From the NCBI RefSeq assembly GCF_006345805.1, contig NC_043003.1:58590001-58654000 (forward strand): 64,000 bases of DNA, given 5' to 3'. Below are positions 29,961 to 62,664 of this stretch, piece after piece. The first letter of the stretch is position 1. Each line of letters starts with the position of its first letter. Source of the stretch: Octopus sinensis (taxonomy: Eukaryota). The position numbers and the translations under genes were made by a program. The notes beneath the pieces were generated by a model. That model did not search any database and had not been told where the DNA came from. It saw only the letters and a program-made list of their open reading frames with translations.

Positions 29961-30510
29961 CTTAACATCTAGTGAACGGTATACGATATATAAATGATTT
30001 ACGGTGGCCTTTATATAGTTTTTGTCATTTGCAACTCGAGGTTAACACTTGCCCAATATGCCGCGCACTGGAAATCCCCCCTTGAACCATATGGATCGAA
30101 AGCAAACTGTTGTTTACATAATTAAGAAGGTAAATAGCTATAAGGGAAGATGGATCGGCTACATATATTATTGATGTTACAAAAAGAAAACAGAAAACAA
30201 AAGAAATCATAGAAATAAGTTGTTTTTTTTAAATAACTTTTTTTTGGCAATTTGATAATTACGATTTTTTTCTTTTCTTTTTTTTTTCTTTTTCAGAACA
30301 GAAATATAAAAAAGGTGCAAGATAAAATAAAATGCAGAAAGCAGGTTATTAATGAACACTGGATGTAAATATCATTAGAAGAATTTCTTCGAAAATATCT
30401 TTGATTAATAAAAAATAACAACACAAATAGCTATTTCATACAATTATGCATATTTTTTATCCATCGCACATAAAATTGTTTATCAGTAGAGACATATTAG
30501 AAGAACTTAC

Positions 30511-30854
30511 TGTTTTCTTATATATTTCTTCATCATTTGGTGCAGTCAGATGTAGAAATGTGAGAACATTATTAACAGACAACACAAAACATTAACTGAT
30601 AGCAGAGAACAAACTAAGTCATTTACGTAAAACAATGGCAAAAATAGCAAATGAGCAAACTAGTGGCGGTCTGCACGAGCAATTATGATACTCTGGGAAA
30701 AATTATTTCGCTCAATCGGATGGAGAGATTCCTCAAAAATATTAGATTTCTTTTCTCCAAACAGCAAAGAACTTAAAACCAACACAAAGACATTAGTGAT
30801 ACATTTCATTATAGACATAACTAATCCACCAAACCGGCAGCCATTGTTTCGTAG
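30511..30854 (-). other. Putative non-coding 5'UTR exon of paralog 1 (conserved block, copy 1)
   Basis: Minus strand begins CAG|CTACGAAA and ends TGAAGAAATATATAAGAAAACA|GTAAGT; homologous to 43077-43244 and 58906-59094. Confidence 0.6.
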
Positions 30855-31841
30855 CTGATTACTGAATGCAAAAATGCAGAGTATGTGGGAAAAATAATAA
30901 ATTATCATTTGTATTACTGATAAAACTAATATTAATAAAATTTACTTGACATACTTTCATAATAATTTATCATAGAAACAGATGGTAAAATCTATACAGT
31001 ATGCAAATTGGAATCGCTTTGATAAAATGGCAGAGTTAGGGGGCTGCTTCTTTTTTTTTTCTTTTTTTTTCAAATATAAGCTTTCGTGACGTTTGGAGGG
31101 GTCATCAACATTCGTATACTCCATATCTGATGGCGACAGTGACTTGAGATGTCCACGTACTGGGTTTTGAAAGCCTATATTTTAACAATCCAGGTGGCTA
31201 TACTAGTTTCTCATAACCGCATCTAGAAAGCTTTTAGTGTTTTACATAATACATCCTAATTACATACACATATGTATATATATATATATATTTCATTCTT
31301 TTTATTTATCTTATTTCACTAAGTATAGTGTTTTTTTTTACAATGCCTTGCTAGCTTCCTTTGCACTTCCCTACACCTTCCTCTCACCTACAATTTGCTT
31401 ACTCCTGTACCTTCTTGTACCTTCACTATCCCATATCACGACCATCCTACATGTGCACACCTCTATACACCCCACGAAACCACCTACACCCCACATTATT
31501 ACACACACACCTTCCTGCACGGACACCCCCCTATGCATGCACTCACCACATCGCCTCCTCTCCTCTTCCTAACTCCTCCTCATAGAACCGCTTTCTCTCC
31601 TGGCCTCTAATTTCGTTCTTTTTCTCTTTTCCACCACCTTTCCTCTTGTTCTTTTCCCCCTTTTTACTTTCTTTTCCTTTCACCTGGTGAAGAACTAGCA
31701 TCCTAAACGTCAAAGGCTATAGCTCTTCCTTTTAAGCATTATACTAATTACACCTTTGTTAAAATTCAATTGGTCTTTACCTTCTTCATCCATCTATCCA
31801 TGCATGCATGCATACATGCATGCATACATACATACATACAT

Positions 31842-31878
<37 letters not shown>

Positions 31879-32293
31879 TACATACATAGATAGAAAATAC
31901 CCATCAAAATGTTGTTGATGTTGAAATTCCAATGAAGGAGTCTTGGATCTAGGTTAGAAACCGGTTCTTTCTCTATTGGCAAGAAATCTTGGAATAAACT
32001 GAATAATGACATACATACATGATAGTTGTGCACTCTTGACCAAGGAAGACCATCACTGACCATTAAGAACTTTGTGCACTTCACACTTATGTCTTTGCTG
32101 GTAGCTAATGAGCTCAGCACTTGATAAAACATACATATCTGCAGTTATTGTAGACTAAGCTTCCTCCATTCTCTACTCTGGCTTGCTTAAATTCTGTATG
32201 AAAATAGTTTTTTTTTTAATGCATACATGCATATACATATATGCGTATATACATACATACATACAAATATGCACACGCACACATATATATATA

Positions 32294-33892
32294 CAGTTGC
32301 GGCCAAAATGTTCAGAATGGCATTGTTTTCGCCAGAAAAGTAGGTATAAGTTTTTATCAAAGTTGTTTTATATTCTATAATTTTCACAGACAATAAATAC
32401 GATATTAATTATTATGGTCTGAGATTTTGGTGTAATTTGAGTGCATAATACAAAAGTTATAGATGATTTAGTGATTTACTGCAAAACCCATGGCGGCCAA
32501 AATGATCAGAACGGTTGCTTTTACTCCGTGTTTTGGTATATTTAACTGGCGAACTCTAATGTTTTGAATTTGTTTATGCGATGGTTGGTTTACTAAACAT
32601 TAGTAAGAATATCTGCAGTGTACTTTGTTAATATAATGCCACTTACTCCGTTACCAATTCGTCAGCAGATTATTAAGCTTCGAAAGAAGGATAATTTAAG
32701 TATTGGGTCTATTGCAAAGATTGTTAACAAGTCAAAAAGTGTTGTTCACGATATTCTTAAGGTCTTCGATGATTGTGGTTCGTGTGAAGCATGAAAGTCT
32801 ACAGGTAGGCCAAGAAAAACGACCAAGAGAGAAGATCGTGCTATGGTAAAGTTGGTTAAAAAGGACAGATTTAAAACTGCTGCTGCTGTTTCTCGGGAAA
32901 TGAGCATTGTACTGAAGAAAACGTTATCTCGAAAAACTGTGTCTCATCGTTTAGTTGAACATAACCTACAAGCAAGAGCACCTGCAGTGAAGCCACTGAT
33001 CAGCTCCAACCGAACATGTGTTGTGGTCTCAAGAAAAATGGCAAACGTTGCATTTCAGTGATGAATCTAAGTTTATGTTATTTGGCTCAGATGGGAAAAG
33101 GTACGTTCGTTGAAAAGTAGGTGAAAAATTGTCGCCTAAATGCCTTAAGACTAGTGTTAAATTTGGTAGAGGAAGTGTCATGGGATGGGGGATGATATCT
33201 GGAGATGGTGTGGGCTCTTTGGTGCGATTACACGGAAAGGTAAATGCAGGAGTTTATAAACAACTTGTAAAAGATCATGTCTTGCCTGTGCTGAGAAATT
33301 CAACTAAGCGACCACTCATATTCATGCAGGACAATGCCCCATGTCACAAGGCTAAGGTGGTCATGAACTTCTCAAGGCTGAAAAGGTTATTATTATGGAT
33401 TGGCCTGCTCAAAGCCCAGATTTCAATCCTATTGAAAATGTGTGGAATATTCTAGGAGAACGTTCGAAAGCCAGAAATCCTAAAACAACCGAGCAATTAT
33501 GGAATGCCCTTCAGGAAGAATGGAATAAGATCACCTAGCAAGAAATTGAAAATTTAATTTCCTCATGCAGTCAAAGATGTCAAAGTGTGATTGAAGCTAA
33601 AGGGCTTCACACTAAATATTAAATAATTCCAGTATTCTCTGACATTTTTGATTATTTTGTTATTTTTTCAACCGTTCTGATCCTTTTGGCCGTCATGAGT
33701 TTTGCAGTAAATCACTAAATCATCCATAACTTTTGTATTATCCTCTCAAATTACACCAAAATCTCAGACAATAACAATTAATATCGTATTTATTGTCTGT
33801 GAAAATTATAGAACATAAAACAACTTTGATAAAAACTTATATCTACTTTTCTGGCGAAAACAATGCCGTTCTGAACATTTTGGCCGCAACTG
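32294..33892 (+). mobile_element. Full-length (~1.6 kb) Tc1-family transposon with long IR/DR-type TIRs
   Basis: TA|CAGTTGCGGCCAAAATGTTCAGAA ... TTCTGAACATTTTGGCCGCAACTG|TA; ~220 bp inverted repeats with an inner repeat GCGGCCAAAATGATCAGAA. Confidence 0.95.
32636..33622 (+). pseudogene. Inactivated Tc1 DDE transposase
   Basis: Motifs GRPRKT, FSDESKF, FMQDNAPCH, SPDFNPIENVW, GLHTKY*; several stops and frameshifts. Confidence 0.9.
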
Positions 33893-33955
33893 TATACACA
33901 CACATATATATATATACACACACACATATATATACATACATATACATATATATAC

Positions 33956-33993
<38 letters not shown>

Positions 33994-34199
33994 TGGTTGT
34001 ATACTGTTAACATAACGGGACAGTCCCGTAAAGGGAATTACACCACCGCTATTTAGCCCTAGGAAGCATCGACACTTCCTGTCGGCTTTAACATATTTCC
34101 TGTGTCCTTATATATATATATGACCTGTCGTTTTTTTGTGTCGTCTCCTTGTGTTCTTGTCTACTTAGTAATTTATATTTTATGTTAAATTGCATATAT

Positions 34200-34343
34200 A
34201 TATAAAGGGCATTCCTACACATAAATAATGCCTCATGCTATGAGGGACTCTATAAGTCAAAACTACCATAATGAATATGGTAGTCTTGACTTATAGAGTC
34301 CCTCATAGCATGAGATAGTTACATGTAGTAATGCCCTTTATAT
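34200..34343. repeat. Near-perfect palindrome (hairpin MITE-like)
   Basis: Core 34232-34314 has 39-bp arms with one G-U-compatible or mismatched position around a 5-nt loop; outer arms ATATAAAGGGCATT / AATGCCCTTTATAT. Confidence 0.85.
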
Positions 34344-35709
34344 GAATAAATATATTTAAAGGGAATAATTATGAATTTTTCCCTTGTGAGGTTTTTGATG
34401 CTGACTACTAGATAAATTCTTATCCCATTTTTAAATTTTATGTGTGTGTGTGTGTGTGCATGTATACATATATTATAATATGTCTTTGATAGAAGTTGAC
34501 ACATGACTGAATAAGACAACTTCTTAGTATCAAGTCTGTGGTTGTTGTTTTTTTATACTAGATGTAACTCAGGATATTTAATTTCTTTTTCTAGTGTTAT
34601 ATAATAAATAAAGGTTTATTAAAATATCACAAATAATAATAGGAACTTAATTTTTTTTTGAGTGGGTAAAGTGTTGCACAGCACTGAACCCACTTTTTAG
34701 TGCAAACAGCTATACAACTGTTAGCATAACAAAAGATGAGACAACAGAAACTAAATGCACTTTGGATTTTTTTATACAAGTTTACCTTCTCCTGAAAAGA
34801 AGGTCTACTGAGAATTAGGAGTTGTTAACATACTAGTTAATCCGTAGCTAGGACCTTGACAGGTGCTTCTACCAAAGGTCAGAGTAGACATATGAACAAA
34901 TAATAGCTAATAGGTGATTCCATGCACATTAAAACCTTGAAACTTGAACCAGAGCTCCACTACTGGATGCCGTTTAAAGTCATACTCAGGACATACAATA
35001 TATACATGCATGCATACATACATTTATAAATACATACAAGCATGTATGCATGCATACACACATTTAAACATGTATTGGCTTCTGTCTATGCAAAATCAGA
35101 TAGACAGAAACAGTATGGTACCCTGTCAGGAATTCAAAGTCCATTTGTCATACTGTCATGCTGATTCTAGTTGAGATTTAAATACTAATTAAACTTAAAT
35201 GTTGAAGTGAATCGAACGGCTTTTGTGTGTTTCTTAAATGGCTTACAAACACCTTCCATGCTGCAATTGTTTTCGTTTCAGCACATGATCTCAGATCAAA
35301 TCACTTGCTATGCAAGTACATCTCCGTAAATACTAATTGTTCTATATTTAATCTGTCTATAAATATCCGTTGAACGTAAATAATGTTAAATACTCATTGT
35401 TTCACACACTAATTGAATGTGTTGGTTGGTCAGTTGTGCATTTTTTACAGGAGAGCCCATCATATATATAAAGGGGTGCTGAAAAGTTCCTTGCTTTAAA
35501 GGTATTGAGAAAGGCGTTGTTGGAGGTCCAACCTTCTGAGTTCTTTTACAAAGTTTGGGAAAGCTGAAGGACTGCTGCAAAAAGTGAATCTGAGAAAGGA
35601 ATATGTTGAATAAAATCATAATTAACTGATCCTCCTGGATTTTCTTTTATCCAAAACCAGGAACATTTCATATATATGTATATATATGTGTGTTTGTGTG
35701 TGTGTGTGT

Positions 35710-35920
35710 ATTCTTTTACTTGTTTCAGTCATTTTACCATAGCCATACTGGAGCACCGCCTTTAGTTAAACAAATCAACCCCAGAACTTATTCTTTGTAA
35801 GCCTAGTACTTATTTTATCAGTCTCTTTTGCCGAACTACTAAGTGACAGGGATGTAAGCAAACCAGCATCGGTTGTCAAACAATGGTTGGGAGAGATACA
35901 CACACACCACACACACACAC

Positions 35921-35953
<33 letters not shown>

Positions 35954-36108
35954 TATGACAGACTTCTTTCAGTTTCCCTCTACCAAAACCACTCACAAGG
36001 CTTTGGCCAACCTGAGGTTATAATTGAAAACTCTTACCTGATGTGGCACTGAACCCGGAACCATGTGGTTGATAAGCAAGCTACTTACCACACAGCCACT
36101 CCTGCGCC
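35710..36108 (-). mobile_element. SINE family A
   Basis: Full-length reverse match. Confidence 0.85.
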
Positions 36109-36150
36109 TGCGTATATATATATAGAGATATAGATATAGATATAAATATT

Positions 36151-36201
<51 letters not shown>

Positions 36202-36964
36202 CCACACATATATATATATATACATGCATACACATACACACAGAAATATTTATATAACGGTATAGGAATATATATGCATATACACGTATATGTATAAACA
36301 AACATATATGCATGTACGTTTTCTAATAAATATTCATGTATATGTGTGTGTGCATAAAGTGGTTGGTATTAGGAAGGGCATCCAGCCATAGAAACCATGC
36401 CAAAACAGACAAAACAGCACTCAGGCAGCTCTCCAGCTGGTCAGCTCCTCACAAACCCTCCAACCCAGCATGGAGAACAGATGACATCATCATCATCATC
36501 ATCATCACCATGGTGATGGTGGTGAAAGACTCGTAATAGTCAAATTACCAGTTTGTTTCATACTGGAGGTGGAGAACCATCTCCAGCAATCATCAGAAAT
36601 GGCTGAAAGGAACAGCATAGCATAGGTTCTGTCATCAGAGGACTGACAGTTTCATATCTAACTTGTGACTCTTAGGGCTATTGTGCCAAGAAATCACCCA
36701 GATCAAAGCCTTGGAAAAATATTTTGGAGTTATGTCCCTTGGATTTGGACCAAAATGAGCCACCTTGACTTCAAAAATATTTGTTGAGTGGGGTTGGAGA
36801 TGGGATAAGGGCAGGATGAAGTAGAGGTGCAAGGGGAAATGAGGAAAGTGGGGAGGGTTAATTTTAAAATCATGTGTGATGATGTACATGAATGTGTGTG
36901 TGTGTATTAGCTGGCGCTGTTAGTATTGTTAATGGTGTTGTTATATATATATATATATATATAT

Positions 36965-37200
36965 ACCGGAGTAAGCACATAAATGTGAAACAAGGTGGAA
37001 AAAAAGAGTACTCAAATACCAGAGGTAGAGTAACATGCTTCATTTAAAAGCAGCAGAAATATAACAAATATAACAGCAGAAATATAACAGAGTTTCACAT
37101 TATTTCTGTTCTATTTTAACAAAACTGTCTGACGAACGGGAACATGAAACTCTGAGTAACAGCTTTTGTTATATTTCAGCTGCTTTTAAATAAAGCACAT
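36965..37200. mobile_element. Penelope-like terminal repeat remnant in inverted configuration, within (TA)n, carrying a hammerhead motif
   Basis: Inverted arms TTTAAAAGCAGCAGAAATATAACAAA / TTTGTTATATTTCAGCTGCTTTTAAA; hammerhead core at 37125-37162. Confidence 0.55.
37125..37162 (+). ncRNA. Minimal type I hammerhead ribozyme motif
   Basis: CTGT-CTGACGA-ACGGGAACAT-GAAA-CTCTGAG-TA-ACAG: stem I CTGT/ACAG, core CUGANGA and GAAA, palindromic stem III, GUA cleavage triplet; one mismatch in stem II. Confidence 0.65.
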
Positions 37201-37539
37201 ATATATATATATATTAAAAAAAAGGAGGCAGTCAGAATTTTGGATAATTTTTTATTAGCGCTTTCATCTGTAAACTTAATATCTATTATTATTGGAGCAA
37301 CAGAATACATGCCAACAAGTCTGGAGCAAAGTCTGGAACTGAATATAGGTTCTTGGGGAGAGAAAACAACTTCTTAATTCATACACTACAAATGATCCCA
37401 ATATCTGGAGGAGGGGGAGGGGGAAGAGGAGAGGAGGAGGAGGGGCCGACAATGACGACGACTTATTTCCATAGAGCAAAAGAAACATACATGCCATGCC
37501 ACTATAATAGTAAGACATTGTCTCAGAAGAGGTGTTTGA

Positions 37540-37934
37540 CACCTCACAGATGTATTTAAATGGGAGAAAAATTATTTCAATGTGCTTTGTAAGGTAAATC
37601 ATTCAATTCAAATATATATTTTGGACCCTTTTATGTAATTACATCAGAGACAAATCACACATTTGCAATATCTGTGTGCAAAATGGCAGCAAGCTGACAA
37701 AATTGTTTGCATACTGGACAAAATGCTTAGCAGCATTTTACTCTTTTACTTGTTTCAGTCATTTGACTGCAGCCATGCTGGAGCACCACCTTTAGTCGAG
37801 CAAATCGCCCCCAGGACTTATTCTTTGGAAGTCTAGTACTTATTCTATCAGTCTCTTTTGCTTAACCGCTAAGTTACGGGGACGTAAATACACCAGCATT
37901 GGTTGTCAAGAGATTTGGGGGGGACAAACATATG

Positions 37935-37966
<32 letters not shown>

Positions 37967-38395
37967 CGACAGGCTTCTTTCAGTTTCCATCTACCGAATC
38001 CACTCACAAGGCTTTGATCGGTCCGAGGCTATAGTAGAAAACACTTGCCCAAGGTCCTATGCAGTGGGACTGAACCCAGAACCATGTGGTTGGTAAGCAA
38101 GCTACTTACCACACAGCCACTCCTGTGCCTATTTTATTCATTTTTATGTCTTGAGTACAAATTCCACTGAGGTTAAATAAGTACTAGGTAAACTCTGGAA
38201 TCGAATTATCCCTTTCACCCAAAATTACTGGTTTCATGCCAAAATTTGAAATCAATATCTCTGTGCAAAATCTTGCACATAATTCATTGTTATCTATCCA
38301 TAAATGTATTCCACACAGGTGATAAATTATACCAATGCAATATCTATGCTAAAATATTCTCTCAGAATTGGGATTTAACTAATTATCAAAGTAAG
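37540..38395 (+). pseudogene. Decayed C2H2 zinc-finger relic split by nested SINEs
   Basis: Fragments read GEKLFQCAL*GKSF, DKSHICNIC and HTGDKLYQCNIYAKIFSQNWDLTNY. A 17-bp near-identical duplication AATATCT(G/C)TGTGCAAAA at 37667-37683 and 38254-38270 flanks the inserted SINEs. Confidence 0.7.
37740..38130 (-). mobile_element. SINE family A nested in a family B SINE (37684-38253)
   Basis: Full-length reverse match, flanked by the family B head and tail. Confidence 0.85.
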
Positions 38396-39680
38396 AACCT
38401 CCACTATAAGGGCCTGTTCTTGTTGGGTGCCTCAATGACCTTTGAGAGCTAAGCTTCTAGTAGTGCCTCCCCTGGTTGGACAGGTCAAAGGATAGAGGCC
38501 AGACTAATCTGGACCACCTCTTTCTAGAACTAAAAATGGGTTTATGTAAGGCCAATACCCTTACCTAGTAAAAAGCAAAATTACAGAAGTGTTAACAACA
38601 ATTCAAAACCAACAAAACCTGTGAGAGGAAAAGCTAGTCCTGAGTCATGAAGTGAAGAAAAGTCACCAATGGTCTATGCTTCATCGATAATGAAGGGCCC
38701 AACATTAAAAACATCGAAGTAAGAATATGGTAGAGTAATAATGGTTTCAAATTCTAACACAAAGCTAGCAATGTCCAGGAAGAGGTTAAGACAAGTACAT
38801 CAACTCCAGTACTTAACTGGAACTTATTCTACTGACTGTGAAAGGATGAAAGGCAAAGTCGACCTTGGCAGAATTTGAACTCAGAACATGAAAGTGGATG
38901 AAATGCCACTAAGAATTTTGCCCAGCACAAGGCTTGAAATTTTGGGGTGGGAGCAAGTCAATTATATCAATCCTTGTATGTAAATGATACGTATTTCATT
39001 GACCAAATCCGCTCACAAGGCTTTGGACAGCCCGAGGCTATAGTAGAAGACACTTGCCCAAGGTGTAATGCAGTGGGACTGAACCCAGAACCATGTAGTT
39101 GGGAAGCAAGCTTCTTACCACACAGCCACATCTGCACCTATAAGTAGAATAATTTTTTAACATGGCGCCAACATGGATGCATTTTATGTGGCACCTGCAT
39201 GGATGCTTTTTACATGACACCAGCATGGGCACTCTCTATGTGGCACCAGCACAGGTGCTTTGTATGTGGCACTGGCACAGTGATTTTAACGTGGAACAGG
39301 CACAGGTGATTTTTATGTGTCTTTATTCTGAAAACCAGGAATGGATCTAAAACTTTTAAAACTTATTCAACTCTTTGATAAAGAAAGAAGAATTATATCA
39401 ATACAGGCCATTGCTATTATGCAAAAGTGTCGCAAGTCTAAAATGTTGCTTTATCAGGAAACGAAAAAATAGTTTCACCATTCCATAGCAAACTTGTTGT
39501 ACTACACTTTGACAATTTTTGATATCTTGGCATCTAAAGCAGTTGGAGATACAATAGTTTGACCAAGAGAACCAGCTATTGTAAGCAAAAATATATATTC
39601 AGAAAAACACATTTGGCCAAATTTGGATATACATAATATTTAACATAATAGCAAGGAAACTGTTTTATCTTCTCGTTACT

Positions 39681-41830: not shown

Positions 41831-42199
41831 TGTATCCCAAACCCTCATACATAGAATTTAAGAACTTAAAACAAAACAGTAATTCGGAAAAAATGAAAAG
41901 CAAATTTGAAAAGCTGTTCTGGGAGAGCAAAATCGTCATATTAGTTGTTGAAAACAAAGATGCGAAGAAATTTTTAAAAACAAAAAAACTAGGGGTGCAT
42001 AGAGGATGTGTTCGACAGGTCCACCAAAACTGTATTAGTTTAATTACCTTACAATTAATTACTTTATTGCTTTCAATTAAATGCAGTTTTCCCTGTAACT
42101 TTTTTCTACTCGAAACTGTGACTACAGGTTTTTGTAGGGTTTTTTTCACTATAGCAACATCGCCCAAAAGATCCTTTAACTTAAACAACACAACAATAT

Positions 42200-43076: not shown

Positions 43077-43244
43077 CTACGAAAGTAAAGCTGTTAGTTT
43101 GGTCAATTACTTATGTTGGATATTCAGTCTGTTAATGTCTTTCAGTAAGATAATAACTAGATCTGTGCTGTCTGTTAATGTCCTCATATTCTACATCTGT
43201 CACACCTACTTTACACATTAAATAGTGAAGAAACATAGAAAACA
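43077..43244 (+). other. Putative non-coding 5'UTR exon of paralog 2 (conserved block, copy 2)
   Basis: ATATTTCAG|CTACGAAAG ... GTGAAGAAACATAGAAAACA|GTAAGT. Confidence 0.6.
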
Positions 43245-44507
43245 GTAAGTTCTATAAATATATATCTCTACTCATTACCAACCTTAAGTGTATTGTGTTG
43301 TATTTAATTAATATAAACCTATTTAATTAACTATTTGTGCCGATTTTCTTTACGTTCACATTCTTCGAATAACTTATAAATCTGTGTTATTTAATAAGTT
43401 TCTTTCTGGCTTTTTGATTTTATTCTACTTCTTTATATGTCTGTTCCGAAATAATATTATGATTATTACGTTTAAATATTTGTTGACGTTTCAAATAAAG
43501 GAGAAAATATAAAATAGTTTTTTTTTTTCTTTTCACTTTGTTATTCCTCTAATATTTTAATTTCCTAGTTGTCTTTAATACTAGTGACCAAGCTGTCTTC
43601 CTTCGTGGGTATTACCTTTTTTTCTTAATTATACAAAACACGGTTATCTTTATTGTGTAGTACCAGATTAGCCCTGATCAAATTGGCGATGACCATCTCA
43701 TCTTTTATTCTGACAGTATATCTAGGACTAAATTATTTATAGTGTCATATTTTTTTTTTTTAATGTGACGTGATTTGGTTGCTATTTTTAGCAGGCTGCA
43801 CGATCAAGCGTTGGCTTGAACACTTGGTTAAATTATTTACTTCAGTGAGTATCTTGTCATTCATGTATACGATATTTCTTCGATTAAGTACATAGAAACA
43901 GGTGGACAAAATACTTAGAGCCAATATGGAATATGCCAACACTGCTGGATCCCCAATCTCTACAGAAGAAACCATAACAAAATACATAAAACTCGCGAGA
44001 CTATGAGGTCGCGCGACATGCTAGAAATCACAACTAAATATCTCTCAACTCACAGCATCTTTAAAAATGTATGTATATTGGACAATACAGTTCAAGATAG
44101 ATTTTTAAAAAAAAACGAGGTGGTTGCAACCAGAATGCCTTTCTGATTGATCATAGATCTGCTCAACCAAGGGCAAAGAACACATAACTGAGCACTTTGG
44201 ATCATCATAGACGAACTACTCAACAAAGGTGCTCAAAATGAAAAGCCCACCCGCAAGTGTGAATTACATTCTTTGTTTCTGAAACGATCTTCCACCCTCT
44301 CAATCCCTGCCACTACATGCACAAGCACCCAAGGATGCTGTTATAACACCATCCTCAAGATGCTCTCTCCCTCTCAGTTCAGATGAACTGCAAAATTGTA
44401 TAACAAAAAGTTGCTGAACTATATGCAGCCAGAACTCAAGAAGGTCTTACAAAGAAACTAAAATGAGTTCAGAGAAAAAATGACTTTACTGTAAGATAGA
44501 TATAAGT

Positions 44508-45188
44508 CTGTGATTCTCAACTGGGATCTATATGGCTCCTGAGGGTCCATGCAACAAAATAGTAAATTGGGGATCCACAATAGTATTTTAAGGACTCTTG
44601 AAAAATTTTTGCTTTAGATTGTTGCCTGGGCCGCTGACTGGCTCCCGTGCCGGTGGCCTGTAAAAAGCACCATTCGAGCATTATCATTGCCAGCGTCACC
44701 TTACTGGCACATGAAAAACAATATTTGAGCGTGGTCTTTGCCAGACTGGCTCCCATGCAGGTGGCACGTAAAAAACACCTTTTGAGCGTCGCCAGTACTG
44801 CCTGACTGGCCCTCGTGCCGGTGGCATGTAAAAGCACCCACTACACTTTTGGAGTGGTTGGCGTTAGGAAGGGCATCCAGCTGTAGAAACTTTGCCAGAT
44901 CAGATTAGAGCCTGAAACAGCCTTCTGGCTCACCAGTCCTCAGTCAAACCGTCCAACCCATATCAGCATGGAAAATGGACGTTAAACGATGATGATGTAT
45001 GTGTTGGTTTCTTTCTCTAACATTTTACGTAGTTCAACCTACACTAGTTAATGTATGAACAACAAAATAGGAATTTTGAAGGAAGTTTCTATAAAACTAG
45101 TTTTTAAACATCGAATGGCTGTGGGGATCCACCAGGGTAAAATAGTAATCAAAGGGACCCATAGATAAAAAATGGTTGAGAACCCCTG
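44508..45188. mobile_element. hAT-type MITE with an inserted family C SINE (about 44630-44997)
   Basis: Ends CTGTGATTCTCAAC ... GGTTGAGAACCCCTG; TSD poorly preserved. Confidence 0.55.
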
Positions 45189-45239
45189 GTCTAGGCAATC
45201 ACAAGAACCACTGAGGGAATCATGGCTAAAAATCTGTAA

Positions 45240-45670
45240 GTACTTATTCTGTCCACTGAGGCAAACTGGAACAAATTCTTCTACTTACACATAGTGTACT
45301 TCGAAAAGAGTGATAAGAGTAGTAATGAAGCTCCACAAGAAATAAAGTTCACTCTCCTGTTGGAGACAGCATCTTCTTTGATATCAGTGCAGTTTTTTAC
45401 AAATTGATGTACTTGCACTGTTCTTATTTATCATCTATCTGGATTACATCCATCACACTTTGACAGGATTAAAGAACTCAGCTTCACTTGAACAAGATTC
45501 ATCTCCCCTTATCACTCGTCTCTACAATAACAGATGCAGATTATGGTAATGATATTGCTCTCTTTGCAGACATCTTCTTTGAAGCTACCACTCTTCTACA
45601 TAACCTTGCAAAAATGGCTGAATATGTTGGTCCATATCTCAATGCCTCAAAGATTGAATATATCTGCTAG
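45240..45670 (+). mobile_element. Decayed LINE reverse-transcriptase fragment (RTE-like)
   Basis: ITDADYGNDIALFA (degenerate YADD region) ... VGPYLNASKIEY. Confidence 0.6.
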
Positions 45671-46299
45671 AATCAAGGTGCAAGTGTGGCTGTTTGGATG
45701 AAGATTGCTTCCCAACCACATTGTTTCAGGCTTAGTGCCACTGTTTGGCTCCTTGGACAAGTGTCTTCTACAATAGCGCTGAGCCAACTAAAGCCTTGTG
45801 AGTGGATTTGGTTAACGGAAACTGAAAGAAGCTCATCATATATCTGGGTGGTTGTATGTATGTATGTGTGTGTGTGTGTCTGTGTCTGTGTATTACTGTC
45901 TCCTTCCTTTGACATCACATAATAATTGTAAGCAAATGCCACCATGATTTCCAATCTTCCATGTAAACATATTCGTCAAGGGGAAACAGGTGAGGGTTGG
46001 AGACAGGAAAGGCATCCAGCTGTAGAAAATCCACCTCAACTAATTCTGTCTGACCCCTCGCAAGCATGGTACAGTAGATGTTAAAACATTACCATGATGA
46101 TGATGAACCAAGAGAGCTAAATAATCACAATCACAAAAAATCCATTAAAATCTATAAACATTGCATCTATGGGAAAGGGCGTAGAAATTGTTCTCTTTCA
46201 GATGATAAAAAGGATTTTTTTGTTTTATTACTTTTTTTGTCTGGATATCATTGGTATCTAGTGATCCTCTGCTGTGCCACTATAGATCCTTAGTGTCTC

Positions 46300-46428
46300 C
46301 AACCACACGGTTCTAGGCACATTCCCACTGCATGTCACCTTGGGCAAGTGTCTTCTACTATAGCCTCGGGCTGACCAAAGCCTTGTGAGTGGATTTGGTA
46401 GATGGAAACTGAAACAAGCCCTTCATAG

Positions 46429-46472
<44 letters not shown>

Positions 46473-46705
46473 GTATGTGTGGGTATATGTTTGTGTGTCT
46501 GTGTTTGTCCCCCAACATTGCTTGACAACCGATGGTGGTGTGTTTATGCCCCCGTAACTTAGCGGTTCAGCAAAAGAGACCAATAGAATAAATACTAGGC
46601 TTCCAAAGAATAAGTCCTGGGTTCGATTTGCTTGACTAAAGGCAGTGCTCCAGCATGGCTGCAGTCAAATGACTGAAACAAATAATAGTAAAAGTAAAGT
46701 AAAGC
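46300..46705 (+). mobile_element. SINE family A (5'-truncated)
   Basis: Body and tail match. Confidence 0.85.
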
Positions 46706-46886
46706 AAGTAAATAACCTAAAGGCAAGACTTGATGTCATTTAAACTCATTTATTACAAGTTGTTCTCTTAATTCGTCTTCGGTCAATTCACCTGTGGTGA
46801 GTGAGTTTGTGACACTGCAGTTTGTGACACTGCCAGGTCAATTCATTGCTAATATTCAAATCAGAATTTTCTTAAATGTTGCTTAA

Positions 46887-47103
46887 CCCTTTAGCATTCA
46901 GATTTTTTAGTCAAAAGTAGTACTAATTTATTCTTTATTCACATTGTTTTAAATTAATAATATATTATCTTGTGGTTTTGAGATTTTGATGATGTGATCG
47001 TATATTTTTATAATGACATTGTAGGGTAGGTGTGAGAGGCCAGATCTGACTGGTTTGAACATAAAACAGGTAGAATGTTTGGGCCAGTTTAAATCCTAAT
47101 GGG
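46887..47103. mobile_element. TTAA-specific (piggyBac-type) MITE
   Basis: TTAA|CCCTTTAGCATT ... AATCCTAATGGG|TTAA; related copies at about 15950-16420 and 50252-50879. Confidence 0.7.
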
Positions 47104-47786
47104 TTAAACAAGGTATTGAACTGATGTTGAGGAATACAAATTTTCTAGTGATATCAAGATGTGAAAAAGTGACAAAAATTAAAATGTAATATCTAAAACA
47201 TACAGTTGAAAGAACTAAAAAGCATAATCTTTATTTTCATAAAATTTCTATTTTGTTTTTATCCTGTTTCATTCCTTTATTTTATTGACCACAGTAAAAA
47301 TGACATGTATAGAATATAGATGGTTATATAAACTGAAAATTAGATTTACCTAAACTTATACATCCATTGTATGGTTAGGCTTCCTGGCTTTTACCTAGGT
47401 TGGTGTTCAATTCTTGGCATGGGAATGCATTATTTACAGGCACAGGTGTGACATCACATAATAAAAGGAATCTTTTAACAATTATCAAACCTGCCATATT
47501 CATCTCCAAAATGAAGATGAGTAATCCTTGTGGCAGTCTTGATAGTTGTTAAGAGATTCCTCATTACATGAAACCATTGGTAGCCTTGTTAACACATACA
47601 CACACATATTCCAGGAGGTGACAAATTCAAAGAAGCTATGTCCATAACATTGTACCTTTTCTCTGTATTTTATCACCTGTTTACTGTTTTAAGATGTAAT
47701 ATTTCTAGTCAAGTCTCCTCTCCACAACAACCTTTTTTATTACTGTTTTATTACTCCTTATATCTTATACTGTTTTACTATTTCAG

Positions 47787-47928
47787 AGAATTTGTCACCA
47801 ATGATATATTAATGAAGACTGACATTATCAGCAAGACCATGTGACATTGATTACATAACCTTGAAGTAATTTATGTATTTATAAAAGAAAGGAATTACAT
47901 TTGCAGTTAATGAACCACAGGCAACAAT
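47787..47928 (+). other. 5'UTR part of the coding exon of paralog 2, after a putative splice acceptor
   Basis: TGTTTTACTATTTCAG(AG)|AATTTGTCACCAA; shares the identical 21-mer ATAACCTTGAAGTAATTTATG with paralog 1. Confidence 0.7.
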
Positions 47929-49635
47929 ATGGAGGAGACATTGAGGAGTGAGGGTCAGGCTCACGTTGAAATAAAATCTGAGAATAAAGATATATCTCAT
48001 GAGACAAAGTTAGATGTAGCAAAACAGTTCTACACCTGTGATGTGTGTTTACTAATATTCTCTGATGTTGAAAGTTTGACTACTCACAAACTTACCCACA
48101 CAGATAAAAAGACACATCACTGTGATATCTGTGCCAAAGTATTCTCCGACAGTTCAAAATTAACTCGTCATAAATGTACTCACACAAGAGTGAAGCCATA
48201 TTGCTGCGATGTCTGCGGCAAAACATTCTCTCGCAACGATAATCTGACACGTCATAAATATATACACTCAGGCAAAAAACCGAGCCGCTGTGAAGTCTGT
48301 GGTAAAACATTTTACACAATTGAAAATTTGACTGCTCATAAACGTATTCATACTGAGGAGAAGCCATACTCTTGTAATATCTGTGGTGAGAAGTTTCGTG
48401 AAAGTAAAGTATTAAGTTCTCATAAACGTATTCATATAGATGAGAAACCGTACCACTGTGATGTGTGTGGTAAAAAGTTCTCTCAAAATGGCTATTTAAA
48501 TTATCATAAACTCATTCACACGGGAGAGAAACCATACCACTGTGCTATCTGTAGCAAAGCATTTTCTCGGAATGATTATTTAAAGCGTCACCTACGTATT
48601 CATACTGGGATAAAGCCATATGAATGTGATATCTGTGGTAAAAGATTCTCCGGAAGTGGACATCTGACATGTCATAAACGTACACACACAGGTAAGAAAC
48701 CATACCAATGTGATGTCTGTGGTAAATCGTTCTCAGCCAGTGGAAATTTATCTTGTCATAAGCGCATTCATTCAGAGGAGAAGCCATACAAATGTGATGT
48801 CTGTGATAAATCATTCTCTCAAAGTGGACATTTAAGTAATCACCGAAATATTCACACAGGAGAGAGACCATACCAGTGTGATGTCTGTGGGAAAACCTTC
48901 TCAGTAAGTGGAGATTTGTCTCGTCATAAACGCATTCACAGTGGTATAAAACCTTACCAATGTGATATCTGTGGTCGAGCATTTTACGAAATGAAATCAT
49001 TAATTAGCCATAAATATAATCATATGGATGAGAAACCGTTCAGCTGTGATATCTGTTTTAAAACTTTCTCTCAGAATACTTATTTGAAACGTCACAAGCG
49101 CATTCACACAGCTGTAAAAACTCGTGATTCTGGCATGTCCAATAAAGAGCTCGCTGCAAGTGAAAATCTAACTTCTCGTGATTATATTTTCACTAGTGAG
49201 AAATTGCACCAGTGTGATATCTGTGGTAAAATATTTTCACAAAAGAGATATTTAGTTAGTCACAGAGATATTCATACATGTGATAAACCATATCATTGTA
49301 ATGTATGTGGTAAATCATTCTCTCAGAACGAGTATTTGACTCTTCACCAACGCATACACATAGAAAGGCCATATCCATGTGAAACTTGTGGTAAAACATT
49401 TTCTACAACTAAAATTCTAACCCGTCATAAACGTATCCATACTGGAGAAAAACCATACCATTGTGATATATGTAGTAAGTCATTCTCTCGAAACGAATAT
49501 TTGACACTTCACAAACGTATTCACACAGGAGAAAAACCATATTCTTGTGATATTTGTGGTAAAGCATTCTCTGCAAAAAAAATCTTAACACGTCATAAAA
49601 TGTATTCACACAACAGAGAAACCATGCTATTGTGA
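47929..49635 (+). CDS. Tandem C2H2 zinc-finger protein, 568 aa (paralog 2); 19 finger units, 18 intact
   Basis: Uninterrupted C2H2 array. The leader (MEETLR...EIKSE...FYTCDVCLLIFSD) and central fingers are clearly homologous to paralog 1. Confidence 0.95.
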   Translation: MEETLRSEGQAHVEIKSENKDISHETKLDVAKQFYTCDVCLLIFSDVESLTTHKLTHTDKKTHHCDICAKVFSDSSKLTRHKCTHTRVKPYCCDVCGKTFSRNDNLTRHKYIHSGKKPSRCEVCGKTFYTIENLTAHKRIHTEEKPYSCNICGEKFRESKVLSSHKRIHIDEKPYHCDVCGKKFSQNGYLNYHKLIHTGEKPYHCAICSKAFSRNDYLKRHLRIHTGIKPYECDICGKRFSGSGHLTCHKRTHTGKKPYQCDVCGKSFSASGNLSCHKRIHSEEKPYKCDVCDKSFSQSGHLSNHRNIHTGERPYQCDVCGKTFSVSGDLSRHKRIHSGIKPYQCDICGRAFYEMKSLISHKYNHMDEKPFSCDICFKTFSQNTYLKRHKRIHTAVKTRDSGMSNKELAASENLTSRDYIFTSEKLHQCDICGKIFSQKRYLVSHRDIHTCDKPYHCNVCGKSFSQNEYLTLHQRIHIERPYPCETCGKTFSTTKILTRHKRIHTGEKPYHCDICSKSFSRNEYLTLHKRIHTGEKPYSCDICGKAFSAKKILTRHKMYSHNRETMLL

Positions 49636-52740: not shown

Positions 52741-54242
52741 TCTCTTTCAAATGCAAAGTGACACTAACACAAACCTGTAATATTTTATCATTCCTGACTC
52801 TTTAAAGCAATTTGTTATATCATGATTGAGAAAATATTTGATAGAAATAGCCATAATAAGTTTCATAAATGTAATTTTTTTCTATTATGAAATATTTCTG
52901 TAGAAGCATTCATCAAATAGTTTAAAATTTTTCCATCTCAAAATAACAGAATTTGAAGGTTATTTCACTAAATTTTCTTCCTGCATTTCCACAACATTGT
53001 ATTTAAGCTTAATATAAACTGCTATTTGTCATTATAACCATGGACTATATCAAATCTTACCATAAATGATATACGTTATGGGACAACTTGTAATTACATT
53101 TTACATAATTGTATGAACCACTCTGTTAAATTATTGCAGTTTATAAAGGTGTGGTTGCTTCATCCAAAATACATCATTTCAGGGGTAGGGGGTAATGAAT
53201 TTACAACAAATTATTAGCAAACGCCTATTTTCATCAGTAATAAATATTTGTATCTTGAAAATTGCTTTCTTTGTGTTAAAACTTGTCCTAACTCTTGTCT
53301 CATGAAATATTGTCTGTAAAAAATTTTAAAAGCTAAAAAGGAATAGACCAAGAACAATATGTAAAATATATATAAAAGAATAAATAAAACTTATGAAAAT
53401 ACTTGTAAATGAATGTATCAATCTTTGCTTCACTTTTAAAATGGTAATTTTCATTTATTCTTTAAATTTTGTCTTTATAAAAGATGTCAGCTGCACTTTT
53501 TCTGTTGTTTACATCTGAATGAAACAGAATTTGCTTTTGGTGGCACAGATCTTTTATTTTTAGATGTTCTCAGGGACTCACCAGCCCTCAGATTTATTGT
53601 GACACCAGGCAATCAATAAACAGTTGTTAGATAACTCTGCCTTTATACTTCATTTGCCTTTTATCAGCCCCTGTTGGCAAAAACTTCCCTCAATATCTTA
53701 TCTTTTATCATTAGTATTGAGTGTGTGTGTATATTTTGAGACACCAGGAAGACATGGGATGAAGTGGTGAAGCATAATCTTCAAATGTTGGGTCTCACAG
53801 AGGCAATGACAAATGACCGTGACCTTTGGTGATTTGGTGTGCTTGAAAAGACCTGTCAAGCCAAGTGAAATCGTAATTGTGGCCGGAGCCAGTGACGCAT
53901 AACAGCTCCCATGCTGATGACATATAAAAGCATCCATGCTGGTCACAAATAAAAGGCACCCACCACACTCTCAGAGTGGTTGGCATTAGGAAGGGCGTCC
54001 AACCATAGAAACCAAGCCAAAATTAGACAGGAACCTAGTGCAGCTCTCTGGCTTACCAGTTCCAGTCAAACCAATTAACCCATGCCTGCATGGAAAGCAG
54101 CCACTAACTGATGATGATGACAGCTTTGGTCCCATTATTACTTCTATATTATATTTCATATTTTGTGTGCATGTGTATCAGCTTACAGCTCTAAGCCAAA
54201 GAAGTTGATTACATAATTATTTTTTTCTTACTCATTCAATAT

Positions 54243-58072: not shown

Positions 58073-58207
58073 TATGATAATTTATTCCATATCAATGCAA
58101 TGCATCAACACCTTCCAATTTACCAAAACATCTATTATTTCTGTTACTTTGTGATGCCTCATAGATTTTTAACACCATTCGCTTTCATTACGTCTTTTAC
58201 ATATGAC

Positions 58208-58890
58208 AGTACCGGACCAAATATCCGGCAAACTTGGGACCGGAAGTCACCTGAATTTCTCGGTTTTCTGGAGACAGCTTAAATATGTATATATTTAAAA
58301 TATAATGTAAACTATGAAAAGTAAAAACGCCAAGAACTAATGTATTGAACAGATTCAAATTAATACATTTCTAAAACGGGGCCTGTTTGTTACCTGTAAA
58401 TCCACTTAAAATTCTTAAAATGTATAATACTGTACCATGTATACCGTAAAATGTTTATAAGATGAAATTTAAACGAAAATGAATAAAGAATATGATTTTA
58501 TTTAACGGATACAGGTGCAAATTTATACACTTCTAAAGCAGAGTATGTTTAATCCATATCAATGCACATTAAAACGTAGAACTAAACTATTTTTTACACC
58601 CTGTAGTCAAATTAAGCAACTTTAATTACTGTGTGTGTTTACTCATTACAAGGTGTATTATATTTCATGATATTTTAGCGATAGAGGCATAATATATCAC
58701 TGAGAGGAAATATTTATTCGCACTTAAGAGGTCATATAGGCAAAAGCCTATATGAGAGTTTCTCTCATCGTATCTATCGCTGTAAAGTTCATTCTAACAG
58801 TACATCCACGTTTAAGTAGGAATTAATGTTTCATGATATTGCACAGCACACCTGGATTTCTGGAAGCCAGATAAAAGGTTCATTATTGTA
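58208..58890. mobile_element. Degenerate pogo/Tigger-like MITE
   Basis: Left end CAGTACCGGACCAAATATCCGGCAAACTTGGGACCGG; right end GCCAGATAAAAGGTTCATTATTG|TA; AT-rich interior. Confidence 0.45.
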
Positions 58891-58905
58891 CTAATCAAGA
58901 GTCAG

Positions 58906-59094
58906 CTACGAAAATAAGGCTACTTGCTTTGATCGATTAGTTATGTGAATATTGAGGCCTAGTTATCACTTAGTTTGCCCTCTCTCCCGTCACTTTTTCT
59001 CTTTATGTCTTCTTCGATGTTTTGCATCACTTAAATATTTCCACATTTATTGCATCTAACTCCAAGAAATAGTGAAGAAATATATTAGAAAACA
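58906..59094 (+). other. Conserved block, copy 3; putative 5'UTR exon of a further paralog whose coding exon is not in the window
   Basis: GTCAG|CTACGAAAA ... GTGAAGAAATATATTAGAAAACA|GTAAGT. Confidence 0.55.
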
Positions 59095-61948
59095 GTAAGT
59101 TGTTCACATGCATATCTACTCTTCACCATCTCGATTGTTTTACGTATAATAAGAAAACTTTAAGATGCCTTTAAATCTATGAAATTGCTTTCCCTGTCAT
59201 TATTCACTATAGATATTTTACAAACAAATCGCAATCAGATAAATATATATAAATATTTTATTTAAAGAAATTCTTCTCTGAATATTATTTCATTCTGTTG
59301 TTTCATTTCATCTCTACTCAAACAAAATTATGATTATCAAAGTTCCAAAATGACAAAATATTTCAATATTGATTTTTCTTTTTGTCCACTGTTTTATTTA
59401 ATTTTATTTTAAAAAATCGTTTTGCAAAACATATTTTGCATAAGATTCAGTTTATGATTAATTAATATATCACGTATAATTATTTCTACTTTGTTATATT
59501 ATTATTCTTCATATAAAACGTAAATGGAACCCCTTAGTTTCTTTCTTACAGATGACAGTTGTGTTGTTTAACTAAATGAAGGGTAATACTCGAGACCTAT
59601 TGATAAAGTCAGTTACAGGTGCTTATAATTGAATTGTAGCACTGTCGATAATGTTAGAAAGAGTGGTTTTTATATTTTCGATAAGTCTCACTTTGAACTA
59701 TGAAAAAATAATCGTGATCTGTCCTATTTGTGAAAATCTGGCTCCTCTTTGGAGGTCTTGTCCCATGTACTTAACCCGAGTACTGATCAAACATGAGCTT
59801 TTTCCGCCAAGATGTAACCATGGAATTCTTCTACCGAAATCCTTAGCAAATGAGCTGACAAATTTACCACACTTTCCTCTTTTAATTCCTCGTGCCAGTG
59901 AGCAACACACACCACTTCCGCTCTCTCTTTCTCTCTCTCACGCATTTTATTTCATTCGCTGTTCGAATTAAAACAGGAACGTATGAGAGCTCATTGGTTA
60001 GGCGAGGTTGTAGCCGTTAAGGGTAACTGCGAATCTTCACTTTACGTTTTAACTCGGGGCGATAAAAGGGAGGGTTTTTTTTCTTTCTATATTTTCCTTA
60101 TTATTAATTGCATGTCTACTAATGCATAAATGTCATTACAATAATATTAAGGCAGAGGTAAAGCATACGCACATAACCCTAAACACCTGGTGTGCGTATT
60201 CTTTACCTTCGCCAAAATTACTACAGACACTTTTGGCACATGCAGAAAAGCCCAAAATGAATTGACACATCAAATACTGGTTTTGAAAATTTTCCGTTTT
60301 AGACTTTAAAGCCCAGGATCTCTCTCACTTTTCCTATATATTTAAAGGCATGACTGTGTGGTTAAGGAAGAAGTTCACTTTGGAATCAACTGGCTTCTGA
60401 TTCAATCCCACTACGCGACACCTTCGACAAGTGCCTTCTTTATCCTCGAGCCGATCTATGCCTTGTGAATCAATTTATAGACGGAGCTGAAAGAAGCCTA
60501 CCGTGCACGCGTGTGTGTGTGTGTAAATATATATATATAAAGGGTGGGGTGCCTTGTCATGACATCATGTGATGATTGTAAATGAGCCTCACTGTCATAC
60601 AAACAGTGATGTTTGTTTCGGGGTCTTCCATGAGAAACATCTTTGCGATATTACCATGTCAAGAAATAGGTGGATTAGCAACTTAGGACTTAGAAAATGT
60701 CTCAATGAATTGCGTTTGATCCAAGCAAGCGTAGAAGAGTGGATATTAAACACTATATATGTGTGTGTGTGTATGCAGCAGGCTTCCATGTAGTTTATGC
60801 CTATAGCAGAAACTTGTCCTAAGTGCTGTGCAGTTGGCATCTTCTATTACAGTCATGAGCTGAAAGGTCATTACGCTTGTGTGTGTGTGTTTCCTTGTGA
60901 TCGTCATACAAGCAGTGTCACAAATTTCCAGTCTTTCATGAAAAACGTTCAACTTTGAGTATATATATTACATTGCTTGGAAACAGGTATGGGTTGGTGA
61001 CAGGAAGGGCATCTGGCCATAGAAAGCTCAGTGAATTTCGTTAAGCTGATTATATATCATCACCATCATTTTATATTCATCTACCATCCTGGCAGGAGTT
61101 GGATGGTTTGATCAGATCTGACAAGTCTGAGGACTGCATTGTGCATCAGTATCTACTCTGGTATGGTTTCTACAGCTGGATGCCCTTCCTAAAGCCAACC
61201 ACATTACAGAGTGTATTGAGTACCTTTTTTCTATCATTTTCATGGCACAAGCATTATTGATGTTACCATGCAGTTTACCAGATTAAGATCTTCAACTGAG
61301 TGAGGTTACTATAGAGCAAGATGGCTTTTATGCTGGATGAGAAGTTAAAGTACAAAAGAAGGGGACAGAACTGAAAAGGTTTCTTGCTGTTGAGGATTTG
61401 CATGGCTACTTACTTTAAAGAAGAGTGGATAGGCTGGAGTCTGGAAAGACAGCTAAAATAGTTGTGATGAAGTGTCAGAGTAGACCTTGAAGATACAAGA
61501 AATTGAATAGAGATGAAGAGTGACAGAAAAACAGAGTGAGGGAGGGTTGAGGTTGCAAGAATGTACAGAGAGAGAGTGAGGAATGGTTGAACATACAGAA
61601 TTGGTGAGGGATGTTGAACAAGGGTTGAAGAGTGGTTGATGATAGATAGATGGGGTAAGAGTAGGTAATGGCTGTAGAGAATGGGTAGGGTTGAAAAGTT
61701 GGAATAATAAATGGTGGGTAGTCAGTGATACATGACACGGGGTGGAAAATAGAGCAGAATATATAATGACTAACAGTAAAAGATGGGTGAGGAGTAGCAG
61801 AATAGTTATAATACAATAAACAGGGGAAAGATGAAAATGCAATGACATGGATGGTCAAGTTGCATGAGAGAAGGGAGAGGTAGGTGTGATGCTGAGGGAG
61901 ATATGGTGGTTGAAAAGGAGATATAATTTGGTAGTGCAAAAAAGGGTG

Positions 61949-62607: not shown

Positions 62608-62664
62608 TGTAAAATATAAGTAGGGAGGAACAACATTAAGAATTATGGATGGATGGTGAATTAA

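What the first reader, a model, noticed from the sequence alone, without database searches (positions are those of the whole stretch)
30100..59520. A non-coding cassette duplicated with each ZNF gene; a third copy predicts a hidden paralog
Seen: three diverged copies (30854-30511 minus, 43077-43244 plus, 58906-59094 plus) start CAGCTACGAAA..GCT....TTTG.T..ATTA.TTATGT and end TGAAGAAA..AGAAAACA|GTAAGT, with weaker homology extending a few hundred bp on both sides. Copies 1 and 2 lie about 7 kb and 4.5 kb upstream of the two coding exons, each in the gene's own orientation. The ends are conserved while internal length varies (344, 168, 189 nt). Inference: this is a shared non-coding 5'UTR exon or promoter module defining the duplication unit of this ZNF subfamily. 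Copy 3 should then splice to another ZNF exon beyond position 64000, or be an orphan.
Basis: partly seen in the sequence, partly recalled or inferred. Interest (0 to 1): 0.75.

Follow-up and report, generated by a model that had tools for sequence, protein, structure and literature searches.

The report
Copied promoter-exon of octopus zinc-finger genes
In a likely octopus genome, a short non-coding block sits ahead of all nine genes of one zinc-finger subfamily and splices to the coding exon in both copies tested, including a gene predicted from the third copy; it is likely each gene's promoter and first exon, copied along with the gene, which is ordinary gene-family biology.

Summary
Observation confirmed, and the prediction holds. 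Copy 3 splices over a 6,724-nt GT..AG intron to a 678-aa, 19-finger gene just past the window (3 of 4 runs). Copy 2 splices 43244→47787. Copy 1 was not tested. A genome search finds exactly nine full copies, each 2.6–11.6 kb upstream of its own C2H2 exon on the same strand; these nine genes form a clade (99/98). It is not a dispersed repeat. The block is probably not one exon: homology starts abruptly at an invariant TACGAAA, CpG o/e peaks there (~1.0 against ~0.5 upstream and ~0.35 in the intron), and spliced contigs start 54–85 nt downstream, next to an initiator-like TTAGTT/TCAGTC. Best reading: core promoter plus a ~105–165-nt non-coding first exon, copied in whole-gene duplications (0.72). 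Start sites are inferred, not mapped. One oddity: TACGAAAR lies 31–32 nt before an initiator-like word in 9 of 13 copies, the TATA position. This scan earlier noted the same kind of cassette, with a CTCF-like motif, on other DNA of this genome. Interest 0.3.

The parts
30511..30854 (-). Copy 1 of the block: TACGAAA at 30853-30847, initiator-like A at 30822 and 30615, donor after 30511; carries a unique insertion of about 175 nt (about 30617-30791)
   Evidence: the insertion has no second match in the genome; splicing not tested with reads
20750..23365 (-). Gene 1 coding exon: predicted acceptor 23365, ATG 23206, stop 20752-20750; 818 aa, 23 fingers by regex
43077..43244 (+). Copy 2 of the block: TACGAAA at 43078, initiator-like TCAGTC with A at 43126, donor after 43244
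   Evidence: spliced contigs cover 43139-43244 (X15) and 43157-43244 (X11)
43245..47786 (+). Intron of gene 2 (4,542 nt, GT..AG); first 100-200 nt still alignable among paralogs
47787..49635 (+). Gene 2 coding exon: 142 nt of leader, ATG 47929, stop 49633-49635; 568 aa, 18 fingers by regex
52813..53506 (+). Paralogous block 3.2 kb after the gene 2 stop, likely the 3' end of the transcript (inferred); marks the 3' side of the duplicated unit
   Evidence: found after 8 of 9 clade genes and 2 relatives on C2; not found after gene 1
58906..59094 (+). Copy 3 of the block: TACGAAA at 58907, initiator-like A at 58939 and 58972, donor after 59094
   Evidence: X18 spliced contig starts at 58973
59095..64000 (+). 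Intron of gene 3; it runs on past the window to the acceptor at G000:C7:58655819 (window-equivalent 65819). ATG at C7:58655965, 678 aa, 19 fingers by regex

Best explanation
The block is spliced through its GTAAGT donor to a single zinc-finger coding exon (shown for copies 2 and 3) and is likely the core promoter plus a non-coding first exon of about 105-165 nt, copied with each gene when the subfamily expanded. Inferred steps: (1) a factor or the basal machinery reads the rigid TACGAAA..GCT..GATTAGTT module; (2) polymerase II starts at one of two initiator-like words inside the block, more likely the second (105-134 nt before the donor); (3) the 2.6-11.6 kb intron is removed (shown), giving a 260-300 nt leader with 6-11 upstream ATGs ahead of an ORF held wholly in exon 2; (4) whole genes, from promoter to 3' end, were duplicated in tandem, inverted and dispersed, and the introns then turned over until only the constrained ends stayed alignable.
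For: Splicing: joint L085 2494→9219, GT..AG, in X15, X18, X1 (3 of 4 runs, 2 of 3 studies); records joining 43244 to 47787 in X11 and X15, while contigs of the DNA-sized run X16 run straight across both splice sites. One-to-one link: a search with a remote copy gave 9 matches, all 9 upstream of their own C2H2 exon; 5 further loci found with copy 3 alone were all C2H2-linked. Co-duplication: the nine proteins form a clade (99/98); block and exon-2 DNA trees both split the nine from three relatives on C2 at 100/100; a paralogous 3' block follows 8 of 9. Non-coding: an in-frame stop lies 4-14 codons before each ATG inside exon 2; no shared ORF in exon 1. Promoter: CpG o/e pooled over 13 copies is 0.86-1.12 from -500 to +1250, 0.51-0.55 at -2000 to -3000 and 0.27-0.45 beyond +1750; higher than upstream in 13 of 13 and than the intron in 11 of 13; 11 of 13 reach 0.8 against 27% of 514 background windows (binomial p 2e-5, copies not fully independent). 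This matches the octopus class with unmethylated start site and methylated gene body (PMC9476566, passages). Homology begins abruptly at TACGAAA; 41% of motif columns are invariant against 14-19% in exon 1, the exon-2 leader and the intron start. No shared upstream exon was found in 8 kb upstream of 13 copies. Spliced contigs start 1 nt (X18, copy 3) and 13 nt (X15, copy 2) after the second initiator-like A.
Against: No start site was mapped: all runs are assembled contigs, which cannot show a start, and their RNA status is a guess or unrecorded. X15 and X1 contigs hold only 27 nt of exon 1 of copy 3 with no upstream record laid, so records are missing and the X18 tip may be a graph break. X11's record has 25 unaligned letters before 43157, and the bin 42916-43239 holds depth that the listed records do not explain (the DNA run has such excess too). 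Six of 13 copies have AG directly before the motif, several after a T-rich stretch. Upstream ATGs are not depleted (6-11 per leader). B3 and D1 have CpG-rich introns too. Within the nine, the DNA trees are unresolved. X13 showed no joint. Some relatives lack a detectable block (E2, B4, C0, H).
Confidence: 0.72

Rival explanations
1. The whole block is an internal (or alternative) 5'UTR exon that starts at CAG|CTACG and is spliced from a first exon further upstream; the conserved 5' motif is an acceptor or splicing signal, perhaps with a second donor at GAAA|GTAAGG.
For: AG directly before the motif in 6 of 13 copies, with T-rich upstream sequence in several; GT follows TACGAAA in 6 of 13; 25 unaligned 5' letters in X11's record and unexplained depth upstream of 43139.
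Against: No AG in 7 of 13; the three C2 copies have purine-rich upstream sequence; little upstream conservation; no shared upstream exon; CpG peak centred on the block; no listed contig joins an upstream exon to copy 2 or 3, though those tables were cut.
Confidence: 0.18
2. Only the donor matters; the 5' motif is a neutral left-over of common descent and starts of transcription are broad and unrelated to it.
For: Exon 1, the exon-2 leader and the first 150 coding bases are all 71-73% alike, so most of the block is no more conserved than the rest of the gene.
Against: A 7-base run with a CpG is invariant in 9 of 9 clade copies and 3 distant copies found by profile; the longest invariant run in the other segments is 3-4; fourfold sites are about 54% alike (about 25 sites per pair, noisy); the one badly broken relative that keeps a donor has lost the motif (one case).
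Confidence: 0.07
3. The block is an old dispersed repeat or small-RNA gene that happens to lie near zinc-finger genes.
For: Two of 11 distinct pattern matches have no C2H2 gene downstream in the DNA fetched (C7:54741352, C340:12530). The genome search skips common words, so it can miss copies.
Against: Those two match only the short pattern, score nothing with the profile, and equal the chance level (reversed-pattern controls 3 and 1). DNA searches returned only gene-linked full copies. No Rfam match on the block in 4 loci.
Confidence: 0.03

Closest known systems
Coleoid cephalopod C2H2 zinc-finger expansions (PMC9068888, passages; PMC12513265, abstract, outline and passages)
   Same: Clustered, lineage-expanded poly-C2H2 genes made by duplication; that paper notes duplicates 'may share regulatory elements'.
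   Different: PMC12513265's main text has 0 occurrences of exon, promoter, UTR or intron; it does not describe this first-exon or promoter module. Supplements were not read.
Zebrafish chromosome 4 'sharp promoter' znf genes (bioRxiv 10.1101/2021.08.09.455629, passages; PMC10547256, passages)
   Same: A subset of clustered C2H2 genes shares one core-promoter architecture, mixed among relatives with another; first exons alike across many paralogs.
   Different: Those have a canonical TATA box, CAGE-mapped starts and, for FZNFs, a coding FiNZ exon upstream. Here the -31 word is TACGAAAR, exon 1 is non-coding, no effector domain was found, and starts are not mapped.
TATA/initiator focused core promoter (PMC4581360, table 1 passage: TATAWAAR at -30/-31, Drosophila Inr TCAKTY)
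   Same: An A-rich word 31-32 nt before an initiator-like word (9 of 13 copies); 6 of 8 TATA letters match.
   Different: Positions 3-4 are CG, not TA; TTAGTT differs from TCAKTY at one letter; contig tips lie nearer the second initiator-like word.
Earlier notes of this scan on other C2H2 clusters of this genome (e1-10334538, e1-10334529; unchecked AI notes)
   Same: A non-coding, probably first exon copied with each gene and spliced to one coding exon.
   Different: Those carry a CTCF-like motif; my regex found none within -500..+600 of 13 copies, and a look-up by sequence found no look-alike.

Membership tests
Spliced non-coding 5' exon | Donor used, GT..AG intron removed | tested here: met
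   for copies 2 and 3; copy 1 not tested
Spliced non-coding 5' exon | Adds no codons to the main ORF | tested here: met
   in-frame stop shortly before each ATG within exon 2
First exon with Pol II core promoter | Capped 5' ends map in the block | not testable with these tools
   only contigs were available; tips at 58973 and 43139 are suggestive
First exon with Pol II core promoter | Local escape from CpG loss ahead of a CpG-poor gene body | tested here: met
   a sequence proxy, methylation itself not measured
First exon with Pol II core promoter | No conserved acceptor or upstream exon | tested here: inconclusive
   AG before the motif in 6 of 13; no shared upstream exon
Canonical TATA-box promoter | TATAWAAR sequence | tested here: not met
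   TACGAAAR in 12 of 13 (TACGAAAC in copy 1); CG at positions 3-4
Canonical TATA-box promoter | Word starts at -30/-31 of the start site | tested here: inconclusive
   31-32 nt to the first TTAGTT in 9 of 13, but the true start is unknown
Poly-C2H2 zinc-finger gene | Tandem C2H2 fingers with linkers | tested here: met
   PF00096 and PF13465 far above cut-off in all three proteins
KRAB-ZNF or FiNZ-ZNF gene | Upstream coding exon with an effector domain | tested here: not met
   exon 1 non-coding; no KRAB, BTB, SCAN or ZAD among the Pfam hits shown (best 25 of 26 shown for gene 2)
Dispersed repeat (SINE, MITE) | Many copies independent of genes | tested here: not met
   9 of 9 full copies gene-linked; search is of limited sensitivity
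Clustered-protocadherin-like shared exon system | Many first exons splice to one shared constant exon | tested here: not met
   each block has its own coding exon, one to one
Known RNA family (Rfam) | Covariance-model match | tested here: not met
   11 matches in 4 loci, all below gathering score and all outside the block

The most novel reading that the evidence does not exclude
This zinc-finger subfamily uses its own non-canonical core promoter: a CpG-containing TACGAAAR word in the TATA position, 31 nt before an initiator-like TTAGTT, read by a dedicated and possibly methylation-sensitive factor or TBP-family variant. That would switch on a dozen genes scattered over 80 Mb of one chromosome and onto a second as one unit, and would be a first family-specific core-promoter code in a cephalopod.
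Probability: 0.15. Interest if true: 0.65.

Novelty: new member of a known kind. Interest (0 to 1): 0.3.

Why it matters
It corrects and completes gene models (a non-coding first exon 2.6-11.6 kb upstream of an otherwise single-exon ORF), and shows that these cephalopod C2H2 genes were copied whole, with their promoter, not as retrocopies. It gives a matched set of about a dozen paralogous promoters in which to test whether duplicates keep or change their regulation, a question left open in PMC12513265, and names a candidate core-promoter motif in a group where my search found almost no core-promoter work (one paper, on an annelid).

Tried and rejected
No run was on record as RNA ('no RNA holder listed'); I relied on intron-skipping contigs. 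A profile search of the whole genome was not available, so genome-wide counts rest on DNA and pattern searches and are lower bounds. Pattern hits on copies used to design the patterns are circular; the independent hits were one gene-linked (C7:100261784) and two not. A 40-nt match on C14 lies outside the block and has no C2H2 ORF or profile hit in 30 kb: dropped. A microexon CTACGAAA|GT was considered and rejected as general, since GT is absent in 7 of 13. A peptide encoded by exon 1 was rejected (no shared ORF). CTCF-like motif: none by regex. Neighbouring C2H2 genes of another subfamily (A4-A6, J1-J3, I1) have no block within 8-13 kb upstream. Within-clade co-phylogeny was unresolved. Holes in contig cover upstream of copy 3 are not used as proof. 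Literature searches for this module or motif found nothing relevant in the listings; the first octopus genome paper could not be read, and no supplements were read, so an annotation of this exon there is not excluded.
Full report
Observation. The two ends align at E 1e-6 to 1e-14 between copies. The window holds two long C2H2 frames, 20750-23224 (minus) and 47914-49635 (plus). The window is G000:C7:58590001-58654000 in a 2.72-Gb genome.

The hidden paralog. A search with the start of the gene 2 protein found a 683-codon open frame at C7:58655950-58657998, same strand, just past the window. It encodes 678 aa with 19 fingers by regex and strong PF00096 and PF13465 hits. Contigs of 3 of 4 runs (X15, X18, X1; two of three studies) join the copy 3 donor (window 59094) to C7:58655819 across a 6,724-nt GT..AG intron; X13's contig starts at the acceptor and shows no joint. 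For copy 2, records of X11 and X15 join 43244 to 47787; for X1 only the exon-2 piece is listed, starting at letter 83 of its record; contigs of the DNA-sized run X16 run through both splice sites. These runs are RNA only by guess or unrecorded. Copy 1's junction 30511→23365 has the same donor and acceptor sequence but was not tested.

How far the block goes. A search with copy 3 gave five more loci on C7. Profiles built from the three window copies found paired 5' and 3' ends at nine places in the fetched DNA. A search with a remote copy returned exactly these nine. Each lies 2.6-11.6 kb upstream of its own C2H2 exon on the same strand. As a rough yardstick, about 1,800 C2H2 genes (165 = 9% in PMC9068888, another octopus) times 12 kb is about 0.4% of both strands. 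The nine proteins form a clade (99/98; first 260 aa, 22 rows). More distant copies lie before three genes on C2, one gene at C7:100.27 Mb (5' motif only) and a broken gene at C7:29.98 Mb (donor kept, TACGAAA lost); one relative keeps a donor-like end only, and four relatives (E2, B4, C0, H) and seven more distant genes show none. Two pattern searches gave 8 matches each against 3 and 1 for the reversed controls; of 11 distinct matches 9 are gene-linked, 8 of them already known to me. A paralogous block of up to 650 nt follows the stop of 8 of the 9 genes by 0.9-3.2 kb (window 52813-53506 for gene 2; none found for gene 1). The duplicated unit is therefore the whole gene. DNA trees of the block and of exon 2 both separate the nine from the C2 three at 100/100 and are unresolved inside.

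Anatomy. Exon 1 cannot add codons, because each ORF has an in-frame stop shortly before its ATG inside exon 2. Conservation across nine copies is absent 150-300 nt upstream, weak in the 150 nt before the motif, highest in the 40 nt from TACGAAA (41% invariant columns, run of 7), and 14-19% in exon 1, the exon-2 leader and the intron start. TACGAAA is followed by GCT and, 31-32 nt on, by a TTAGTT in 9 of 13 copies; a second TTAGTT or TCAGTC lies 105-134 nt before the donor in 9 of 9 clade copies, with variable spacing to the first. Copy 1's extra length is a unique insertion between the two. A weaker shared element lies 50-180 nt upstream in D1, D2 and faintly C1 and copy 1, and 700-800 nt upstream of copy 3.

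Promoter or internal exon. CpG o/e pooled over 13 copies rises from about 0.5 at 2-3 kb upstream to 0.86-1.12 from -500 to +1250 and falls to 0.27-0.45 beyond +1750. It beats the upstream window in 13 of 13 copies and the intron window in 11 of 13. PMC9476566 (passages) reports a large class of octopus genes with methylated bodies and unmethylated start sites; CpG loss through methylation is textbook knowledge, recalled. No shared upstream exon turned up in 8 kb above 13 copies; the shared pieces there were the 3' block of the previous gene or looked like repeats. Spliced contigs start at 58973 (X18), one base after the second initiator-like A, and at 43139 (X15), 13 bases after it. Against this: contigs cannot show a start; X15 and X1 hold only 27 nt of copy 3's exon with nothing laid upstream, so records are missing; X11 has 25 unaligned letters before 43157; and 6 of 13 copies have AG just before the motif. 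I put promoter plus first exon at 0.72 and internal exon at 0.18.

Mechanism. Shown: the donor is used and the intron removed (copies 2 and 3); the ORF is in one exon; block and gene are linked one to one. Inferred: initiation inside the block, a role for TACGAAA, an unmethylated promoter, and damping of translation by 6-11 upstream ATGs per leader (about 5 would be expected by composition, my estimate).

Comparison. TACGAAAR matches 6 of 8 letters of TATAWAAR and sits at the canonical -31 from the first TTAGTT (PMC4581360, table 1 passage), but fails the TATA sequence test at the two central letters. The closest described case is the zebrafish chromosome 4 znf subset with a shared sharp TATA promoter (bioRxiv 10.1101/2021.08.09.455629 and PMC10547256, passages). 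The paper on cephalopod C2H2 expansions does not mention exons or promoters in its main text. Listings of five searches showed no description of this module; supplements and the first octopus genome paper were not seen. Earlier notes of this scan describe the same kind of copied first exon with a CTCF-like motif on other pieces of this genome; no look-alike of this sequence was on file and I found no CTCF-like word here.

Verdict. A real, correctly predicted feature: the shared front end of a C2H2 subfamily, most likely promoter plus non-coding first exon. Whole-gene duplication with the promoter is ordinary; the invariant CpG word at the TATA position is the one lead worth an experiment. Interest 0.3; new member of a known kind.

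Noticed in passing
window 52813-53506 (+) and paralogous places on C7 and C2: A block of up to 650 nt, 60-67% alike among paralogs and holding AATAAA words, 0.9-3.2 kb after the stop of 8 of 9 clade genes; likely the 3'UTR end.
   Followed up: partly
exon-2 leader of the nine genes (e.g. about 100 nt before ATG 23206, minus strand): An upstream ORF of 11-12 codons (MTLSR-like) is intact in 6 of 9 paralogs with only whole-codon length changes and broken in 3, including genes 2 and 3. Weak hint of a conserved uORF.
   Followed up: partly
G000:C7:100261784-100262200 (L097): A distant copy keeps TACGAAA and the +31 TTAGTT, but a repeat flanked by a 16-nt direct duplication sits about 110 nt downstream; a 538-codon C2H2 frame follows 6.8 kb later.
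   Followed up: partly
G000:C7:29980503-29987682 (minus): A broken relative (stops, frameshifts, repeat insertion) keeps the donor half of the block but has lost TACGAAA.
   Followed up: partly
window 30854 to 43077: Genes 1 and 2 are head to head, with their blocks 12.2 kb apart; a 228-nt inverted pair at 95% (32290-32517 and 33669-33896) and a 200-nt inverted pair at 82% (40890-41088 and 41621-41820) lie between them.
   Followed up: no
G000:C7:58696522-58728249 (L014-L017): Three C2H2 genes of another subfamily follow gene 3; they lack this block, and one (58708278-58710289) is split over two frames.
   Followed up: partly
window 63104-63478 (+): An acidic 124-aa frame resembling the start of a piggyBac-type transposase (recalled likeness, not tested) inside the gene 3 intron; high depth of foreign contigs nearby.
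   Followed up: no
window 39644-40021 (+): A 125-aa frame resembling the tail of a LINE (RTE-type) ORF (recalled likeness); a 393-nt copy at 96% lies 1.1-1.5 kb upstream of the block at C7:52.326 Mb.
   Followed up: no
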